In this document: positions 31,343-36,642 of the stretch, in pieces | How the letters are laid out: each line of letters begins with the position of its first letter | Numbering within the stretch: the first letter of the stretch is position 1 | IMG/VR virus record: IMGVR_UViG_3300022839_000018 | Reading direction: 5' to 3' (one strand) | Length of the DNA: 55,149 nucleotides | DNA from: a virus | Position numbers and translations under genes: made by a program | Notes under the pieces: generated by a model | What the model was told of the DNA's origin: nothing | Databases searched by the model: none | What the model saw: the letters and a program-made list of their open reading frames with translations, nothing else

Positions 31343-31594
31343 GTGTCAGGTTTTAATAAACCTAAGCGTACTCCTAGTCACCCTAAGAAGTCACACGTAG
31401 TTGTGGCTAAAGAAGGTACTACCATTAAGACTATTCGCTTTGGTGAACAGGGAGCTTCCACAGCAGGTAAACCAAAAGCTGGTGAATCAAGTACAATGAA
31501 AAAGAAACGGGCATCATTCAAAGCTCGACATGGAAAGAATATAGCCCGTGGTAAGCTAAGCGCTGCGTACTGGGCAGATAAAGTTAAATGGTAA
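31343..31594 (+). CDS. Small basic protein of a conserved phage / giant-virus family (83 aa, GTG start)
   Basis: KPKRTPSHPKKSHVVVAK...IRFGEQG...SFKARHGKNI...AAYWADKVKW pattern remembered from many phage genomes. Function is unknown. Confidence 0.6.
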   Translation: MSGFNKPKRTPSHPKKSHVVVAKEGTTIKTIRFGEQGASTAGKPKAGESSTMKKKRASFKARHGKNIARGKLSAAYWADKVKW

Positions 31595-31606
31595 AGGATT
31601 ACTAAA

Positions 31607-32167
31607 ATGGGTGTACTATCAGCTGCAGCACGTGCCGCAATGAAAGCTAGTAAAGCAGCGGCTAAGCTAAAGAAGAACGCAGGCAAGGGCGACCTTGATG
31701 TAGATACGGTAGTTAAGGCAAGGGTAGCGAAGGCTAAGAAAGCTAAAGCTAAACCCAAAGCTAAAGACTCCGGTGATATTTCTGAAGTGGTAATGCGTAA
31801 AGATCGTAAGCCTAACACTGCAGAGAAGCAGACTAGCAAAGAACGTTTAAAAGAAGCTACAGGTTCTATTTCTGCAGGTACTACTAAAGCAGGGGCCAAG
31901 CCTTTGACAATGAGTTCGTATCGTTCTATGTCCTCTGCTAAACGTTCAGCTGCTTTGTTAAAAGCTGACATAGACTTTCGTGCAGGTAGTATTACTAAAG
32001 CTGAACGTGCGGAAATTGTTAAACGTATTCGGCAGTCAAATGCATCTGAGGTAGATAAGTCAGGTCGCCAAATGGCACAGGGTAAGTCTAACAAAAAAGC
32101 TAAGCCTGTATCACTTGCTCCCGACATGAAGTTTAGCAAAGGCGGCTACACAAAAGGTAAGAAGTAA
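31607..32167 (+). CDS. Lys/Ala-rich histone H1-like protein (186 aa)
   Basis: AKAKKAKAKPKAK tracts. It ends KFSKGGYTKGKK. Confidence 0.6.
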   Translation: MGVLSAAARAAMKASKAAAKLKKNAGKGDLDVDTVVKARVAKAKKAKAKPKAKDSGDISEVVMRKDRKPNTAEKQTSKERLKEATGSISAGTTKAGAKPLTMSSYRSMSSAKRSAALLKADIDFRAGSITKAERAEIVKRIRQSNASEVDKSGRQMAQGKSNKKAKPVSLAPDMKFSKGGYTKGKK

Positions 32168-32201
32168 TAATCTCCCCTATTACAGTAAACGCATAACGGC
32201 A

Positions 32202-32245
32202 TTGCATTATTGTCTGTAGTATGGTATAACTAAGTATGGTATAAC
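32202..32245 (+). promoter_or_regulatory. Tandem 15-bp repeat carrying two extended -10 elements (TGGTATAAC twice)
   Basis: AGTATGGTATAACT at 32218-32231 and 32233-32246. A weak -35 (TTGCAT) lies at 32202-32207. Confidence 0.45.
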
Positions 32246-32277
32246 TTCCTTGGCACTAATACAAGGAGATATATACC

Positions 32278-32421
32278 ATGCTAAAACGTTTACTTAAAAG
32301 TTTACAAGAAAGCCAACAACGCCGTGCAGACTATTGGCTGCTGCATAACATGACCAACAAAGACTTACGTGATATAGGAATTACTCGTGGCGAAATCAAA
32401 AGTAAAATCTACAGTCAATGA
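32278..32421 (+). CDS. DUF1127-domain protein (47 aa)
   Basis: Translated by hand as MLKRLLKSLQESQQRRADYWLLHNMTNKDLRDIGITRGEIKSKIYSQ. AAGGAG at 32263-32268. The signature is R...L..M(S/T)..DL(R/K)DIG(I/L).R..I. Confidence 0.7.
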   Translation: MLKRLLKSLQESQQRRADYWLLHNMTNKDLRDIGITRGEIKSKIYSQ

Positions 32422-32572
32422 GGCAGGAAATTATACTAAGCCTACTATGCGGAAACGTTTGTTTGAGCGGATTAAGCGTGGAACCAAGGGCGGCAGCGCA
32501 GGGCAGTGGTCTGCACGTAAGGCACAGCTACTGGCAGCAGAGTACAAAAAAGCAGGTGGGGGTTACAAGTAA
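32387..32572 (+). CDS. Small basic protein (61 aa, GTG start) with YTKP...GGSAGQWSARKAQLLAAEYKKAGGGY motif
   Basis: Track ORF. It resembles the N-terminal half of a bacterial/phage small-protein family as I remember it. Confidence 0.55.
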   Translation: MAKSKVKSTVNEAGNYTKPTMRKRLFERIKRGTKGGSAGQWSARKAQLLAAEYKKAGGGYK

Positions 32573-32742
32573 TGGCAGCTGGAATGAAGCACTATTTTAA
32601 AGATGGTGTAGAACATAAAGGTGCAACCCACAAAGACGCTAAGGGCAAGTTAATGTCCGGTGCAAAGCACGTAGCGTCTAGTAAGTATCTATACCACGTA
32701 AAGGAACTGTCAGCTACCGCTAAGAAGAAGGTCAAGAAGTAA
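32572..32742 (+). CDS. Small His/Lys-rich protein (56 aa)
   Basis: Translated by hand as MAAGMKHYFKDGVEHKGATHKDAKGKLMSGAKH.... TAATG overlaps at both ends. Confidence 0.5.
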   Translation: MAAGMKHYFKDGVEHKGATHKDAKGKLMSGAKHVASSKYLYHVKELSATAKKKVKK

Positions 32743-32999
32743 TGGCCCTTGCTAAATCCCAAAAGAGTCTTAGTAAATGGACAAAGCAAAATTGGAGAAC
32801 TAAAAGTGGTAAGCCTTCGACACAAGGTAGTAATGCTACAGGTGAACGCTATTTACCTGCTGGGGCGATCAAAGCTATGTCTAGCTCAGAGTACGCAAAA
32901 ACTACGGCAAAGAAAAGAAAAGATACAGCGGCAGGTAAGCAAGTATCTAAGCAACCTAAAGCGGCGGCTAAAACTGCCAAACGTTTTAGGAGGGTCTAA
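32742..32999 (+). CDS. Small basic protein (85 aa) with SLSKWTKQNWRTKSGKPS...ERYLP motif
   Basis: Track ORF. It resembles the C-terminal half of the same family as 32387..32572. Confidence 0.55.
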   Translation: MALAKSQKSLSKWTKQNWRTKSGKPSTQGSNATGERYLPAGAIKAMSSSEYAKTTAKKRKDTAAGKQVSKQPKAAAKTAKRFRRV

Positions 33000-33319
33000 T
33001 GACATCCTTTGAAGAAGCTGACAAAGATTGTAATGGTTCTATTGAGAAGTCTGAATGGGACGCTTTACTATTAGAAGATAAACGTAGGCGATTAGAAGAT
33101 GAAGATGCACACAGAGACCAAACTAGAAAGATGGCTTGGTTCGCATTATGGGGAATGCTCCTTTATCCTTTTGGTGTGGTTGCAACGGGTGCGCTCGGCC
33201 TTGACAACGCTTCCTCAATCATCGGCAGTATGGCAAGCGTTTACTTTGTGTCAGTTGCTGGGGTCGTATCTGTTTTTATGGGCGTAACTAACCTAGCTAA
33301 GAAAGCTGTAAGCAAATGA
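32999..33319 (+). CDS. Two-TM membrane protein with an N-terminal EF-hand loop (holin/antiholin candidate)
   Basis: DKDCNGSIEKSEW (33020-33058) fits the PROSITE-style EF-hand loop at every position. The TM segments are MAWFALWGMLLYPFGVVATGALGL and IIGSMASVYFVSVAGVVSVFMGV. Confidence 0.6.
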   Translation: MTSFEEADKDCNGSIEKSEWDALLLEDKRRRLEDEDAHRDQTRKMAWFALWGMLLYPFGVVATGALGLDNASSIIGSMASVYFVSVAGVVSVFMGVTNLAKKAVSK

Positions 33320-33672
33320 TTGGTCAACTCTTAGGTGCCGTAGGTAGTCTTGCCAGCACTTACCTCGACGGTAAGGTAGCAGTACAGAAAGCTAATGCAG
33401 AGATTAAAGTCAAACAAGCCACAGGTGAGATTGACTGGGACATTGAAGCTATCAAGGCTACACAGAATAGTTGGAAGGATGAATGGATAACTCTACTTTT
33501 CAGTATCCCCCTGATACTAGCCTTCTGTGGTGACTGGGGTAATCAAATAGTACAAGCAGGTTTTACTGCACTTGAAGTAATGCCGACATGGTATCAATAT
33601 AGCTTAGGTGGCATTGTAAGTGCCAGCATAGGAATGAGATCAGTAAGTAAGTTTTTCGGAGGAAGTAAGTAA
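33316..33672 (+). CDS. Holin-like membrane protein (118 aa)
   Basis: N-terminal amphipathic region, then WITLLFSIPLILAFCGDWG and a second hydrophobic segment. The architecture is reminiscent of the DUF3154/GTA-type holin (tentative). It lies next to the endolysin. Confidence 0.45.
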   Translation: MIGQLLGAVGSLASTYLDGKVAVQKANAEIKVKQATGEIDWDIEAIKATQNSWKDEWITLLFSIPLILAFCGDWGNQIVQAGFTALEVMPTWYQYSLGGIVSASIGMRSVSKFFGGSK

Positions 33673-33673
33673 T

Positions 33674-33940
33674 ATGGCTATGCGACCAAAGGCACGTCCC
33701 GCAAATATGGGTAAAGTAGACGGAACACCAGCAGCTGTGACACGATTTATTACAGCTAACGGTATTTCTGCAGCTAAAAAGAAATACAAGCCAGCTTCCA
33801 TTATGGCTGCACAAAAGCTAACAAAAGATAAAGTTAAAGCACCTACAACTTCACTACGTCCAAAAGGTCGTCCACTGGTCGCTGGTAGCGTAGGTAATAC
33901 GTCAAGCACTCGTGGTTTTAAGCCGTTGGGAAAAATGTAA
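33674..33940 (+). CDS. Basic hypothetical protein (88 aa) with two RPK(A/G)RP motifs
   Basis: Track ORF inside the lysis cassette. Confidence 0.55.
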   Translation: MAMRPKARPANMGKVDGTPAAVTRFITANGISAAKKKYKPASIMAAQKLTKDKVKAPTTSLRPKGRPLVAGSVGNTSSTRGFKPLGKM

Positions 33941-34392
33941 TGGCATTTAATTTATCACAACGTAGCCTTGACAAGATGGAAGGCGTAGATGAAACACTTG
34001 TGTCTGTAGTTAAACGTGCCATTGAACTTACGAAGATAGACTTCGGAGTTATCTATGGTATGCGTACACAAGCGGAGCAACGTAAACTTGTAGCTGCAGG
34101 TAAGTCTCAGACTATGAAGTCTAAGCACCTTGTAGGTAGGGCAGTTGACTTGATGGCTTACGTAGAAGGTAAGGGTTGCTGGGAACTAAACGTCTATGAC
34201 GATCTATGTGACGCAATGAAAGAGGCAGCTAAGGAACTTGATGTGGCAATCAAGTGGGGTGCCGCATGGTCAGAGGGTGACATTCGTACGTACGAAGGTA
34301 CATCGGAAGACGCAATGATGAAATACATTGATCTTCGCCGCAGTGAAGGTCGTAGGCCCTTTATTGATGGCCCACACTTTGAGTTGATGTAA
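33940..34392 (+). CDS. Peptidase M15 (L-alanyl-D-glutamate peptidase type) endolysin
   Basis: SKHLVGRAVDL and DGPHFEL zinc-ligand motifs (HxxGxAxD ... DxxH). Confidence 0.8.
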   Translation: MAFNLSQRSLDKMEGVDETLVSVVKRAIELTKIDFGVIYGMRTQAEQRKLVAAGKSQTMKSKHLVGRAVDLMAYVEGKGCWELNVYDDLCDAMKEAAKELDVAIKWGAAWSEGDIRTYEGTSEDAMMKYIDLRRSEGRRPFIDGPHFELM

Positions 34393-34402
34393 AGGAAGTA
34401 AT

Positions 34403-34777
34403 ATGGCACGTGAGTTAACGGAACGTCAACAAAAGTTTTTAGCAGTCCTTATGGATGAGGCAGGTGGTGATGTTACTACCGCCAAAAAACTTGCAGGGTA
34501 TTCAGAAAATACTTCTAATACAGAAATTACTAATAGCTTGAAAGAAGAAATCATTGACACAACACATAGCTATCTAGCACGTAACGTACCTAAAGCTGCT
34601 ATCGCTATGGTTAGTGCCTTGTACGATCCTACTGAGTTAGGCATTCGTGAAAAGATGGCGGCAGCTAAAGAACTACTAGACCGTACAGGCTTAGTTAAAA
34701 CTGAGAAGGTACAGGTAGAATCTAAGGGTGGTGTCATGCTGATGCCAGCTAAACAAGTACAGGAAGACGATGACTAA
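34403..34777 (+). CDS. terS: Probable terminase small subunit
   Basis: LTERQQKFLAVLMDEAGGDVTTAKKLAGYSE HTH-like N-terminus. It lies upstream of TerL. Confidence 0.5.
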   Translation: MARELTERQQKFLAVLMDEAGGDVTTAKKLAGYSENTSNTEITNSLKEEIIDTTHSYLARNVPKAAIAMVSALYDPTELGIREKMAAAKELLDRTGLVKTEKVQVESKGGVMLMPAKQVQEDDD

Positions 34778-35201
34778 GCCATTAGGACAATGGAAACTAC
34801 CACAACCGACTGACCTACAAGAAGACAACGAATGGGTTCCTATCCCACGTGTAGCTAGAACAGTTCCCTTCGGGTATCAATTAGACCCAGAAGATAGCGG
34901 AATACTCTTGCCAATTGTACACGAACTTGATATGCTTATGGAAGCTAAGAGATACTTAAAGCAGTACTCTTATCGTGAGGTAGCTAACTGGCTTACACGA
35001 AACACAGGCAGAAGTATATCTCACGTAGGATTAAAGAAACGGTTGGACAATGAGCGAAGAAGAAAAAACAAAGCTGGAAGCCTACGCAGATGGGCAGACT
35101 ATGCGAAAAAGGCAATCGCCAAAGCGGAAGAAATCGAGCGCACAAGGATCGGCGCAAAAGCCCAAGGCGAGGAAGACAAGCCAAAAGCAGACGCAGCCTA
35201 A
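34770..35201 (+). CDS. HTH DNA-binding protein (143 aa)
   Basis: SYREVANWLTRNTGRSISHVGLKKRL. It overlaps the longest TerL frame by 152 nt. Confidence 0.5.
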   Translation: MTKPLGQWKLPQPTDLQEDNEWVPIPRVARTVPFGYQLDPEDSGILLPIVHELDMLMEAKRYLKQYSYREVANWLTRNTGRSISHVGLKKRLDNERRRKNKAGSLRRWADYAKKAIAKAEEIERTRIGAKAQGEEDKPKADAA

Positions 35202-36642
35202 ACCTACTACCTTACTTGTAGAAGATTTGTCGCAGGTAGAAGAACAGCATAACATTATTTTTAAACCTAATGCTGGGCCACAGACAGACTTCCTAGCTGC
35301 AAGTGAGCGTGAGGTCTTATACGGAGGCTCTGCAGGGGGTGGAAAGAGTTACGCTATGTTAGCTGACCCTTTACGCTTTATGGGCCACCCAGCCTTCTCA
35401 GGATTGCTCCTACGGCATACCACGGAAGAACTACGAGAACTTATCTTTAAGTCACAAGAAATGTATCCTAAGATTTGGCCCGGTATTAAATGGTCAGAAC
35501 GTAAGATGCAGTGGACTGCACCCTCTGGTGCCAGACTGTGGATGTCCTACCTAGATAAAGAAGATGACGTACTTCGCTATCAAGGTTTAGCATTTAGCTG
35601 GATAGGCTTTGACGAACTTACGCAATGGCCTAGTCCCTTCGCTTGGAACTACATGAGATCACGTTTACGTTCTACAGCTAAAGACCTACCAGTGTACATG
35701 AGAGCGACTACTAACCCCGGAGGCAGAGGACACCATTGGGTTAAGAAAATGTTTATTGACCCTGCTGCATACGGTGTATCCTTTGACGCTACTGATATTG
35801 AAACTACTGAAGTACTTCGCTACCCTGCAGGGCATGAGAAAGCAGGGAAGGCACTATTCAAACGTAAGTTTATTCCTGCACGATTAAGAGATAATCCATA
35901 CCTAGCTGAGCAAGGCGACTATGAGGCAATGCTTCTATCCTTGCCTGAGCAACAACGTAGGCAACTACTAGACGGTGATTGGGACATTAAAGAAGGTGCA
36001 GCATTTACGGAGTTCGATAGAAACATCCACGTAGTTGAACCCTTTAAGATACCATCTAACTGGGTTAAGTTTCGGGCATGTGACTATGGATATGGAAGTA
36101 AATCTGGCGTAGTCTGGATTGCTGTATCCCCTAGTGAACAGTTAGTAGTGTATCGTGAGTTATACGTAACAAAGGTACTTGCTGCTGACCTCGCAGACAT
36201 GGTTCTTAACCTAGAAGCGGAAGACGGAAACATTAAATACGGCGTATTGGATAGCTCTCTTTGGCACAAACGTGGTGATACGGGACCGTCCCTAGCGGAG
36301 CAGATGGTACAAAGGGGTTGTCGGTGGCGTCCATCAGATCGTTCTAAAGGCTCTCGTGTAGCAGGTAAGAATGAAATACACAGGCGATTACAGGTTGATG
36401 AGTTTACAGAAGAACCTAGACTTATATTTTTTAACACCTGTACTAACATAGTTGCACAGTTACCTGCGCTACCCATAGACAAAAGAAACCCAGAGGACAT
36501 AGACACTACCTCAGAAGACCACTTGTACGATGCGCTAAGGTATGGTATTATGTCAAGACCACGATTTAGTATATGGGACTACGATCCCAACAGTGGACCA
36601 TCAAATACTATGAGAGTAGCAGATGCTACTTTTGGATATTAA
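35050..36642 (+). CDS. terL: Terminase large subunit (true start uncertain: 35050, 35101 or TTG 35227)
   Basis: Walker A YGGSAGGGKSYAML, Walker B-like SWIGFDELT, and a C-terminal nuclease region. Confidence 0.85.
   Translation: MSEEEKTKLEAYADGQTMRKRQSPKRKKSSAQGSAQKPKARKTSQKQTQPKPTTLLVEDLSQVEEQHNIIFKPNAGPQTDFLAASEREVLYGGSAGGGKSYAMLADPLRFMGHPAFSGLLLRHTTEELRELIFKSQEMYPKIWPGIKWSERKMQWTAPSGARLWMSYLDKEDDVLRYQGLAFSWIGFDELTQWPSPFAWNYMRSRLRSTAKDLPVYMRATTNPGGRGHHWVKKMFIDPAAYGVSFDATDIETTEVLRYPAGHEKAGKALFKRKFIPARLRDNPYLAEQGDYEAMLLSLPEQQRRQLLDGDWDIKEGAAFTEFDRNIHVVEPFKIPSNWVKFRACDYGYGSKSGVVWIAVSPSEQLVVYRELYVTKVLAADLADMVLNLEAEDGNIKYGVLDSSLWHKRGDTGPSLAEQMVQRGCRWRPSDRSKGSRVAGKNEIHRRLQVDEFTEEPRLIFFNTCTNIVAQLPALPIDKRNPEDIDTTSEDHLYDALRYGIMSRPRFSIWDYDPNSGPSNTMRVADATFGY

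What the first reader, a model, noticed from the sequence alone, without database searches (positions are those of the whole stretch)
32999..34392. Lysis cassette headed by a two-TM protein carrying an exact EF-hand calcium-binding loop
The cassette has four parts:
- ORF 32999..33319 begins with helix-loop-helix FEEA-DKDCNGSIEKSE-WDALLLED. The 13 residues DKDCNGSIEKSEW satisfy every position of the canonical EF-hand loop pattern (D-x-D-x-N-G-x-I-x-x-x-E-W).
- After the loop come a basic stretch and two TM segments. The positive-inside rule places the EF-hand in the cytoplasm.
- The ORF is translationally coupled (ATGA) to a holin-like protein (33316..33672).
- These are followed by a basic protein and an M15 endolysin.

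I am not aware of a holin or antiholin with an EF-hand. Calcium influx on first membrane damage could provide positive feedback for lysis timing, which matters in roughly 10 mM Ca seawater. That mechanism is speculation.
Basis: partly seen in the sequence, partly recalled or inferred. Interest (0 to 1): 0.65.

Follow-up and report, generated by a model that had tools for sequence, protein, structure and literature searches.

The report
EF-hand membrane protein in phage lysis cassette
A small two-pass membrane protein at the head of this marine phage's cell-bursting genes carries a conserved calcium-binding loop on its cytoplasmic end; it belongs to a very large, unnamed family of ocean-phage proteins, and may let calcium entry influence when the infected cell bursts.

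Summary
ORF 32999..33319 encodes 106 aa: a canonical EF-hand loop (residues 8-20), a charged helix, two TM segments and a basic tail. It is ATGA-coupled to ORF 33316..33672, then an 88-aa basic protein and an M15 endolysin.

- **The loop is not chance.** It is the only PS00018 match in all six frames. It is conserved, at a fixed distance from TM1, in distant homologues from Roseobacter podophages and from SAR11 and OM43 myophages.
- **The family is huge and unannotated.** It has at least 8000 clusters at 90% identity and 539 representatives at 50%, with no Pfam, PHROG or NCBIfam model.
- **Context is lytic.** In 56 of 94 related loci the gene lies directly upstream of a holin-type gene, and an endolysin (M15, GH19 or GH108) follows in 51 of these.
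- **It can stand alone.** It lies beside a spanin and endolysin in CRP-345, and sits between gp51 and the tape measure in T4-like myophages.
- **The loop is optional.** Over half of the diverse representatives with an intact TM core lack it, so the EF-hand is an add-on module.

Best reading: a holin-step protein (co-holin or antiholin) gated by cytoplasmic calcium. Lysis context and loop conservation are shown; Ca binding, topology and mechanism are inferred. No such protein turned up in the literature searched.

The parts
32742..32999 (+). 85-aa basic protein (phrog_14910). It is the conserved upstream neighbour of the cassette in HMO-2011-type phages. Its stop overlaps the next start (TAATG).
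   Evidence: PHROG E 4.5e-31. The same neighbour occurs in HMO-2011 and in IMG/VR loci.
32999..33319 (+). EF2TM: a 106-aa protein with an N-terminal EF-hand, a charged helix, two TM segments and a basic C-tail. It belongs to a large unannotated marine-phage family.
   Evidence: No PHROG, NCBIfam or Pfam family.
33020..33058 (+). EF-hand calcium-binding loop DKDCNGSIEKSEW (residues 8-20).
   Evidence: It is the only PS00018 match in six frames. Across the family: position 1 D 100%, position 3 N/D, position 5 D/N/S, position 6 G 94%, position 8 I/V/L, position 12 E 97%. The family N-terminal profile hits calmodulin-type EF-hands. 30 of 39 members hit Pfam EF-hand_1 at E<0.01.
33131..33202 (+). 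TM1 (residues 45-68). It contains the most conserved family motif, MAWFALxGMLLYP, and is preceded by the juxtamembrane motif EDxDAxRDxxRK.
   Evidence: Hydropathy; invariant columns.
33212..33298 (+). TM2 (residues 72-100) with conserved small-xxx-small spacing (A87, S/A91, G95), followed by the basic tail AKKAVSK.
   Evidence: Hydropathy; invariant V86, A87, V90, F93, G95.
33316..33672 (+). 118-aa membrane protein (phrog_2524, unknown function), ATGA-coupled to EF2TM. In 18 sister cassettes its slot holds a Pfam GTA_holin_3TM holin.
   Evidence: PHROG E 1e-31; position equivalence. No PF11351 match and hhalign probability 30%.
33674..33940 (+). 88-aa very basic protein (19 K/R, 2 D/E) with no TM and no family. 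It is present in only some sister cassettes.
33940..34392 (+). M15 peptidase endolysin (150 aa).
   Evidence: Pfam Peptidase_M15_4 at 27.6 bits, above the gathering score; phrog_465 'endolysin' at 4e-52. Similar to the CRP-345 gp67 endolysin.

Best explanation
ORF 32999..33319 encodes an inner-membrane hairpin (N-in/C-in, two TM segments, basic C-tail) that acts at the holin step of lysis. It works with the translationally coupled membrane protein from 33316..33672 to control when the M15 endolysin reaches the cell wall.

Its cytoplasmic N-terminus is a single EF-hand. The exiting helix of that EF-hand runs without a break into the juxtamembrane helix and TM1.

Proposed mechanism:
1. At resting cytoplasmic calcium (sub-micromolar; established knowledge) the acidic, unpaired EF-hand keeps the protein monomeric. 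In this state it is inert or inhibitory, behaving like an antiholin.
2. When the membrane first leaks in roughly 10 mM-calcium seawater, calcium enters.
3. EF-hands of two protomers pair, and the rigid helix transmits this to the TM hairpins.
4. The protein switches to promoting hole formation, which makes triggering abrupt.

Shown here: the sequence features, their conservation, the lysis-cassette context and the modular exchange of partners. Inferred: topology, calcium binding, EF-hand pairing, and the direction of the effect (pro-lytic or anti-lytic).
For: **The loop is selected, not chance.**
- It is unique in the window, with a shuffle rate of 5.6e-4.
- It is kept in CRP-345, CRP-207, Melnitz and HTVC008M homologues at 42-48% identity.
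- 31 of 76 intact representatives at 50% identity carry a strict DxNxDGxIxxxE, against 0.003 expected from shuffles. The loop always starts 34-41 residues before the start of TM1.
- The family N-terminal profile hits calmodulin and other EF-hand chains.
- 30 of 39 members hit Pfam EF-hand_1 at E<0.01.
- One natural variant (P0266) has two EF loops in tandem.

**Structure models.**
- The model of P0266 has mean pLDDT 77. It shows helix 36-42, loop, then one continuous helix 53-105 running through TM1.
- The window model gives helix 17-65.

**Lysis context.**
- 56 of 94 related loci have the gene directly upstream of phrog_2524 (38 loci) or Pfam GTA_holin_3TM / phrog_3427 'holin' (18 loci). Junctions are mostly 4-nt or 1-nt overlaps.
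- In 51 of those loci a GH19, GH108 or M15 endolysin follows.
- 36 of the 56 are preceded by a TM-plus-coiled-coil, spanin-like protein.

**It can stand alone next to an endolysin.**
- CRP-345 has EF2TM, then a u-spanin-like protein, then an endolysin. No phrog_2524 or PF11351 gene was found in the 54.2 of 54.7 kb of that genome scanned.
- L067 has EF2TM followed by a membrane-anchored GH24 lysozyme.

**Architecture and expression.**
- The protein fits a class II holin: two TMDs, K+R of 5/0/3, and a basic tail.
- No + strand terminator lies between 31.3 and 36 kb, so the cassette belongs to the run that continues into terminase and structural genes.

**Precedent.** In ICP1 a holin that its authors linked to DUF3154 / GTA_holin_3TM by remote homology (TeaA) is regulated by an adjacent membrane antiholin (ArrA) (PMC7182436). 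The gene order there is TM-coiled-coil, then ArrA, then TeaA.
Against: - No homology to any characterised holin or antiholin was found.
- The window protein scores below Pfam's EF-hand gathering thresholds.
- The entering helix is minimal.
- 42 of 76 intact representatives lack the loop, so calcium cannot be essential to the core function.
- In 14 loci from T4-like myophages the gene sits between gp51 and the tape measure, not near lysis genes. A further 17 loci have unrelated or unknown neighbours.
- HMO-2011 has phrog_2524 without this gene, so the gene is dispensable for lysis in that phage.
- The monomer model of the window protein is poor (pLDDT 62, loop below 50).
- Topology, metal binding and any lysis phenotype are untested.
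Confidence: 0.45

Rival explanations
1. It is a pure antiholin of the lysis-inhibition type. The cytoplasmic EF-hand senses the transient ion leak caused by a superinfecting phage (or by other envelope stress), and the protein then holds the downstream holin inactive. This would delay lysis, as T4 RI/RIII and ICP1 ArrA do.
For: - The gene is upstream of and coupled to a holin-type gene in 56 loci.
- It occupies the slot that ArrA occupies in ICP1, in the order TM-coiled-coil, then small multi-TM protein, then holin.
- HMO-2011 manages without it, as expected of an accessory regulator.
- Sensor domains are typical of antiholins (established knowledge: the periplasmic domain of T4 RI).
Against: - CRP-345 and HTVC008M have the gene but neither a phrog_2524-type nor a PF11351-type holin gene for it to regulate.
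- No sequence similarity to ArrA.
- Lysis inhibition has not been reported for these phages in the papers read.
Confidence: 0.2
2. It is a holin-step or other membrane protein in which the EF-hand is only a structural dimerisation module. The site would be permanently occupied by Mg2+ or Ca2+, or would need no metal, and would carry no signalling role.
For: - Many full-length family members do without the loop yet keep the juxtamembrane motif and both TMs.
- Unpaired EF-hands are known dimerisation devices, for example EF5 of penta-EF-hand proteins (established knowledge).
Against: - Every calcium ligand position is conserved, including Glu12 at 97% and Gly6 at 94%. That exceeds what a mere packing module would need.
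- A bidentate Glu at position 12 favours Ca2+ over Mg2+ (established knowledge).
Confidence: 0.18
3. It is not a lysis protein. It is a membrane protein tied to DNA entry or tail assembly, for example a partner of the tape measure protein, a superinfection-exclusion factor, or a membrane anchor for baseplate-hub assembly. Its place in podophage lysis cassettes would then be incidental.
For: - Strict synteny of hub (gp26-like), gp51, this gene, then the gp29 tape measure in 14 T4-like loci, in HTVC008M and in Melnitz.
- EF-less members lie next to gp23 or gp13 in other T4-like contigs.
- Hub assembly in T4 involves poorly understood small proteins, gp28 and gp51 (PMC3004832).
Against: - T4-like phages scatter their lysis genes among late genes, so that position says little (established knowledge for T4 genes t, e, rI).
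- In podophages the gene keeps its place while the holin type and the endolysin type are swapped around it. That pattern is typical of a lysis-module component.
- It is translationally coupled to the holin-type gene.
Confidence: 0.12
4. The EF-hand match is a chance motif in an acidic N-terminus.
For: - PS00018 is a short, degenerate pattern.
- The Pfam scores are sub-threshold for this protein.
Against: - Conservation across thousands of homologues at a fixed register.
- Strict loops in 31 of 76 representatives against 0.003 expected.
- Profile hits to solved EF-hand proteins.
Confidence: 0.02

Closest known systems
Class II holins and pinholins (for example phage 21 S21-68)
   Same: - Small protein with two TM segments.
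- Predicted N-in/C-in topology.
- Short periplasmic loop and charged C-terminal tail.
- Small-xxx-small motif in TM2.
- Encoded next to an endolysin.
   Different: - No sequence similarity.
- A 44-residue cytoplasmic N-terminal domain with an EF-hand, where S21 has only a few residues.
- TM1 is not SAR-like.
- No dual-start motif.
ICP1 TeaA/ArrA holin-antiholin pair (Hays and Seed 2020, PMC7182436)
   Same: - A holin of the DUF3154 / GTA_holin_3TM kind is preceded by a separate small membrane protein that tunes lysis timing.
- The gene order matches: TM-coiled-coil protein, then small multi-TM protein, then holin. 36 sister loci here show that order.
   Different: - ArrA is 151 aa, appears multi-TM by inspection of its sequence, and has no EF-hand.
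- No similarity was detected.
- The window's own downstream gene is phrog_2524, not a demonstrable PF11351 member.
Two-gene holin systems (PBSX XhlA/XhlB, SPP1 gp24.1/gp26)
   Same: An upstream gene encodes a membrane protein with a cytoplasmic helical N-domain. It is followed by a holin and then an endolysin, and both membrane proteins take part in lysis (from memory; not tested here).
   Different: - Gram-positive systems with no homology.
- No metal-binding domain.
EF-hand superfamily (calmodulin-type loops; unpaired EF-hands that dimerise, such as EF5 of penta-EF-hand proteins; dockerin 'F-hand' loop-helix repeats)
   Same: - A 12-residue loop with D1, D/N3, D/N/S5, G6, I/V/L8 and E12, followed by an exiting helix.
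- A tandem-EF variant exists (P0266).
   Different: - A single copy fused directly to a TM hairpin.
- The entering helix is short or absent in many members.
- The window protein scores below Pfam's gathering thresholds.
EF-hand-like calcium sites in CHAP endolysins of staphylococcal phages
   Same: A calcium site in a phage lysis protein. This was the only kind of 'EF-hand plus phage lysis' hit in the literature searches, judged from titles and abstracts rather than full reading.
   Different: - Those sites are in soluble cell-wall hydrolases and serve catalysis or stability.
- The site here is on a membrane protein at the holin step.

Membership tests
EF-hand (Pfam clan; PROSITE PS00018) | 12-residue loop with oxygen ligands at positions 1, 3, 5 and 12, Gly at 6 and a hydrophobic residue at 8 | tested here: met
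   DKDCNGSIEKSE fits every position. The family-wide composition is canonical.
EF-hand (Pfam clan; PROSITE PS00018) | Score above the curated Pfam gathering threshold | tested here: not met
   - EF-hand_1 scores 17.1 bits against 25.4, and EF-hand_5 scores 15.1 against 25.9.
- Some close homologues carry precomputed PF13202 hits.
- 30 of 39 diverse N-terminal segments hit EF-hand_1 at E<0.01.
EF-hand (Pfam clan; PROSITE PS00018) | Helix-loop-helix: entering and exiting helices flank the loop | tested here: inconclusive
   - The exiting helix is predicted (H17-65; H53-105).
- An entering helix is predicted only in the P0266 model (H36-42).
- In the window protein only seven residues precede the loop, and they are modelled as coil at pLDDT below 50.
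- Myophage members have Pro just before the loop.
EF-hand (Pfam clan; PROSITE PS00018) | Binds Ca2+; EF-hands work in pairs | not testable with these tools
   - No multimer or ligand modelling was available.
- A natural tandem-EF variant fits a need for pairing.
Holin (functional class) | Small protein with at least one TM segment and a charged, hydrophilic C-terminus | tested here: met
   106 aa, two TM segments, tail AKKAVSK.
Holin (functional class) | Encoded next to the endolysin in a lysis cassette | tested here: met
   - In the window it lies 620 nt upstream of the M15 endolysin.
- 51 related loci have an endolysin within 1.3 kb.
- This does not hold in the 14 myophage loci.
Holin (functional class) | Homology to a described holin family | tested here: not met
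   - No Pfam, PHROG or NCBIfam holin hit.
- Fold searches were uninformative.
Holin (functional class) | Lethal, PMF-collapsing hole formation that energy poisons can trigger | not testable with these tools
   Needs expression experiments.
Pfam PF11351 GTA_holin_3TM (tested for the neighbour 33316..33672) | Match to the family model | tested here: not met
   - No PF11351 hit for the window protein, for 9 relatives, or for 3 phage homologues, including two that their depositors labelled DUF3154.
- hhalign against true PF11351 neighbours gives probability 30% over 26 N-terminal residues only.
- It does occupy the same slot as true PF11351 members (L058 at 8e-24).
Antiholin of the ArrA type (ICP1) | Sequence similarity to ArrA | tested here: not met
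   hhalign probability 0.04%. Only the gene order is alike.

The most novel reading that the evidence does not exclude
Calcium influx from seawater is an input to the lysis clock of some of the most abundant phages in the ocean. A holin-class membrane protein reads cytoplasmic Ca2+ through its own EF-hand and converts the first membrane leak, or a superinfection event, into all-or-none triggering or into a delay of lysis. This would be the first ion-sensing holin or antiholin.
Probability: 0.3. Interest if true: 0.85.

Novelty: new variant of a known kind. Interest (0 to 1): 0.68.

Why it matters
Holins set the length of the phage infection cycle. The known inputs to that clock are holin concentration, membrane potential and, in T-even phages and ICP1, superinfection. 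A conserved calcium sensor wired by one rigid helix into a lysis-cassette membrane protein would add an ionic signal to that list.

It would do so in phages of SAR11, OM43 and Roseobacter, which drive much of bacterial mortality in the sea.

The family is very large, at least 8000 clusters at 90% identity. It has no entry in Pfam, PHROGs or NCBIfam, so naming it would annotate a 'hypothetical protein' in thousands of marine viral contigs.

It also gives a testable handle on lysis in phage groups where no holin has been assigned. HTVC008M and Melnitz carry no holin annotation in the records read here.

Tried and rejected
- **Chance motif:** rejected.
- **Known families for the 2TM protein:** Pfam, PHROGs and NCBIfam gave nothing beyond sub-threshold EF-hand hits.
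- **Fold search, P0266 model against PDB:** only Rop-like helical hairpins at E>7.
- **Fold search, window model against BFVD:** one unnamed 84-aa family member and noise.
- **Is phrog_2524 a GTA_holin_3TM?** Not supported. There is no PF11351 hit in 13 proteins tested, and hhalign probability is 30% over 26 residues. All 375 phage records call it hypothetical or 'TMhelix'.
- **Is EF2TM a paralogue of phrog_2524?** Inconclusive: hhalign probability 37%, E 3.7e-4, over 85 co-linear columns.
- **Homology to ICP1 TeaA or ArrA:** none.
- **A partner holin elsewhere in HTVC008M or CRP-345:** none of either type found.
- **Cellular homologues:** only 14 hits among 185,579 species genomes, all on metagenome-assembled contigs, most of them short, several with phage-type neighbours. 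The family is essentially viral.
- **A spanin in the window:** no lipobox ORF in the cassette region (30-36 kb), and no homologue of the sister loci's spanin-like proteins anywhere in the window.
- **Literature:** nothing on EF-hand or calcium-binding holins or antiholins, and the CRP and HMO-2011 papers do not discuss these genes.
- **Monomer AlphaFold of the window protein:** too weak (pLDDT 62) to judge the EF-hand fold.
Full report
**1. The observation**

The ORFs are as described.

ORF 32999..33319 encodes 106 aa, read here as these parts:
- MTSFEEA, seven residues before the loop.
- DKDCNGSIEKSEW, the EF loop at residues 8-20.
- A charged helix, DALLLEDKRRRLEDEDAHRDQTRK.
- TM1, about residues 45-68.
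- A three- to four-residue loop.
- TM2, about residues 72-100.
- The tail AKKAVSK.

Tests of the loop:
- It meets PROSITE PS00018 at every position.
- It is the only such match in the six-frame translation of the whole window.
- It appears in 111 of 200,000 shuffles of the protein.
- Four Pfam EF-hand models hit residues 2-25, but below their gathering scores (17.1 bits against 25.4).

K+R counts are 5 in the N-flank, 0 in the loop and 3 in the C-tail. This fits N-in/C-in, which puts the EF-hand in the cytoplasm (an inference from the positive-inside rule).

Gene junctions and neighbours:
- The ATGA overlap with ORF 33316..33672 is real, as are TAATG overlaps on either side of the block.
- ORF 33674..33940 has 19 K/R against 2 D/E.
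- ORF 33940..34392 is an M15 endolysin. It passes the Pfam gathering score and matches phrog_465 at 4e-52.
- TerS and TerL follow.
- No + strand terminator-like site lies between 31.3 and 36 kb.

The window is 55,149 bases and resembles an HMO-2011-type Roseobacter phage. It shares about 78% nucleotide identity with CRP-345 and CRP-1 over the terminase region.

**2. The loop is conserved, so it is not chance**

tblastn found homologues in only ten phage records, all from marine hosts:
- Roseobacter phages CRP-345, CRP-207, CRP-810 and CRP-701.
- The OM43 myophage Melnitz.
- The SAR11 myophage HTVC008M.

At 42-48% identity, the four homologues translated here (CRP-345, CRP-207, Melnitz, HTVC008M) each keep a canonical loop: DLNGNGTLDQDE, DEDGDGIITDDE, DTNGDGKVSDEE and DTNGDGKVSAEE.

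The family is very large in metagenomes:
- 742 clusters at 90% identity lie close to the window protein.
- An exhaustive profile search of 1.84 billion representatives at 50% identity gave 539 hits at E<=1e-3 and 245 at E<=1e-10.

Among the 150 best representatives, 76 have an intact TM core by my criteria:
- 34 carry a loop, and 31 of those fit the strict form DxNxDGxIxxxE. Shuffling their N-termini gives 0.003 expected.
- The loop always starts 34-41 residues before the start of TM1.
- Ligand positions are canonical: D1 100%, N/D3, D/N/S5, G6 94%, I/V/L8, E12 97%.

A profile of 39 diverse N-terminal segments hits calmodulin and other solved EF-hand proteins, at 14-20 bits per EF-hand. Of those 39 segments, 30 hit Pfam EF-hand_1 at E<0.01.

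One representative, P0266, has two loops in tandem. Its AlphaFold model has mean pLDDT 77. It shows helix 36-42, then the loop, then one unbroken helix 53-105 that runs through TM1. The window protein's own model is weaker (pLDDT 62) but also gives a continuous helix 17-65.

**3. The EF-hand is an add-on**

42 of the 76 intact representatives have no loop. Some are truncated, but many are full-length proteins with an acidic helical N-terminus.

These loop-less members keep three things:
- The juxtamembrane motif E[ND]xDxxxDAQRxMAWFAL.
- Both TM segments.
- The basic tail.

The core function does not need calcium, and the EF-hand is a module carried by the most abundant branches.

In the myophage branch a proline precedes the loop. 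The conserved unit is thus the loop plus the exiting helix, not always a full helix-loop-helix.

**4. Context**

I fetched 80 IMG/VR loci and 14 contigs from genome collections. The latter are all metagenome bins, and several have phage-type neighbours. I classified neighbours with local HMMs and reference proteins.

*Lysis cassettes (56 loci).* The gene is directly upstream of a holin-type gene, usually overlapping it by 4 nt or 1 nt.
- 38 loci have the phrog_2524 type found in the window.
- 18 loci have a true Pfam GTA_holin_3TM protein. L058 scores 8e-24 against Pfam and 4e-33 against phrog_3427 'holin'.
- In 51 loci an endolysin follows: GH19 in 27, GH108 in 13 (L056 scores 3e-30 against PF05838) and M15 in 11.
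- Five of the six possible holin-type and endolysin-type combinations occur. This modular shuffling is typical of lysis cassettes.
- 36 loci are preceded by a protein with an N-terminal TM and a coiled coil, which is i-spanin-like architecture. In nearly all of them a signal-peptide protein with a C-terminal coiled coil lies further upstream.

*Alone next to an endolysin.*
- In CRP-345 the order is EF2TM, then a u-spanin-like lipoprotein with a C-terminal TM (NCBIfam spanin2_3 at 3e-14, below its cut-off), then the endolysin.
- No phrog_2524 or PF11351 gene was found in the 54.2 of 54.7 kb of that genome that I scanned.
- L067 has EF2TM followed by a membrane-anchored GH24 lysozyme.

*Lineages without it.*
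- HMO-2011 has phrog_2524 and a lysozyme but no EF2TM.
- CRP-13 has an unrelated 2TM protein in the same slot.

*T4-like myophages (14 loci, plus HTVC008M and Melnitz).* The gene sits between gp51 and the gp29 tape measure. HTVC008M has neither holin type anywhere in its genome.

*Other contexts.*
- Two of the 94 loci, plus three further metagenome contigs, show a 1-TM protein, then EF2TM, then DnaJ. Peptide deformylase follows in four of the five, and a ClpB-type gene was seen in the three contigs.
- Loop-less members were found after gp23, before gp13, and convergent with an M15_3 peptidase.
- 17 loci have unknown neighbours.

**5. What it most likely does**

The gene keeps a fixed, translationally coupled place between spanin-like genes and a holin-endolysin pair, while every partner is exchanged around it. 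Its architecture is that of a class II holin.

I therefore place it at the holin step of lysis.

Whether it is a holin, a co-holin or an antiholin cannot be settled from sequence:
- Its stand-alone occurrence in CRP-345, L067 and the myophages argues that it can act alone.
- Its dispensability in HMO-2011, and its position, which matches that of the ArrA antiholin in ICP1, argue for a regulator. In ICP1 the order is TM-coiled-coil ORF139, then ORF138, then the DUF3154-related TeaA holin (PMC7182436).

The lambda S107 paradigm reconciles the two. An inhibitory form becomes a contributor to hole formation once the membrane fails (established knowledge).

The model I commit to:
1. At resting cytoplasmic calcium the unpaired acidic EF-hand keeps the hairpin inert or inhibitory.
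2. On the first leak in calcium-rich seawater the EF-hands pair.
3. The continuous helix couples that pairing to TM1.
4. Triggering becomes all-or-none.

The direction of the effect, the calcium binding, the pairing and the topology are all inferred.

**6. Rivals**

- A lysis-inhibition antiholin that senses superinfection.
- A constitutive dimerisation module with no signalling role.
- A role linked to DNA entry or tail assembly, suggested by the myophage synteny. The T4 hub-assembly proteins gp28 and gp51 remain poorly understood (PMC3004832).
- A chance motif, which is rejected.

**7. Comparison with what is known, and novelty**

- No Pfam, PHROG or NCBIfam model covers the family.
- There is no similarity to TeaA or ArrA.
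- The similarity to phrog_2524 is weak and unresolved (probability 37%).
- Literature searches found EF-hand-like sites only in CHAP endolysins and nothing on calcium-binding holins or antiholins.
- The CRP and HMO-2011 papers do not discuss these genes.

I rate it a new variant of a known kind: a lysis-cassette membrane protein with a sensor module not seen before in this role.

**8. Verdict**

The calcium-feedback mechanism remains a reasonable but untested hypothesis. Two facts complicate it: the loop-less relatives and the myophage synteny.

Noticed in passing
window 31343..32999 (+): A run of six small, very basic ORFs (83, 186, 47, 61, 56 and 85 aa) lies directly upstream of the lysis cassette. 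The last is phrog_14910, which keeps this position in HMO-2011, CRP-345 and many IMG/VR loci. Their function is unknown.
   Followed up: partly
window 33674..33940 (+): An 88-aa protein with 19 K/R against 2 D/E, no TM and no family lies between the holin-type gene and the endolysin. It is present in only some sister cassettes. No spanin or lipobox ORF was found in the cassette region of the window, so it might replace spanins as a cationic outer-membrane disruptor. That is speculation.
   Followed up: partly
L058 5057..5991 and 35 other related loci; L003 3267..3848 (CRP-207 gp73): A conserved gene pair lies directly upstream of the EF-hand gene: a signal-peptide protein with a C-terminal coiled coil (phrog_37374), and an N-terminal-TM protein with a coiled coil (i-spanin-like). 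CRP-207 gp73 is annotated 'putative lysozyme', but two of its homologues show no lysozyme domain in Pfam.
   Followed up: partly
L118 18725..20097 (Vibrio phage ICP1): ICP1 has the same gene order as the marine cassettes: TM-coiled-coil protein (ORF139), then a small multi-TM protein (ORF138, taken here to be the published antiholin ArrA), then the holin TeaA (ORF137). Neither protein is detectably homologous to the window's proteins.
   Followed up: yes
L004 5421..6126 and L002 6946..8231 (HTVC008M, Melnitz): An adenylate/guanylate cyclase gene lies convergent, just beyond the tape-measure gene that follows the EF-hand gene in both myophages. This puts a second-messenger enzyme next to a putative calcium sensor.
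   Followed up: no
protein P0266 (metagenome representative): A natural family member carries two EF loops in tandem (DKNGDGIIYDRD and DLNGDGKISQEE) ahead of the same TM hairpin. This fits a need for EF-hand pairing.
   Followed up: partly
window 33316..33672 compared with 32999..33319: The two adjacent membrane proteins align weakly but co-linearly (hhalign probability 37%, 85 columns). They share a terminal-TM motif, GGIVSASIG against AGVVSVFMG. This could be distant paralogy or convergence.
   Followed up: partly
window 34770..35201 and 35050..36642: The listed TerL ORF (530 aa) overlaps the preceding ORF by 152 nt. CRP-345 TerL is 442 aa, so the true TerL start is probably further downstream.
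   Followed up: no
L005 4642..8921 and L074, L090: In one phage lineage the EF-hand gene is followed by phage-encoded DnaJ. Peptide deformylase comes next in L005 and L090, and a ClpB-like AAA+ protein follows in L005. This is an unusual chaperone block.
   Followed up: no
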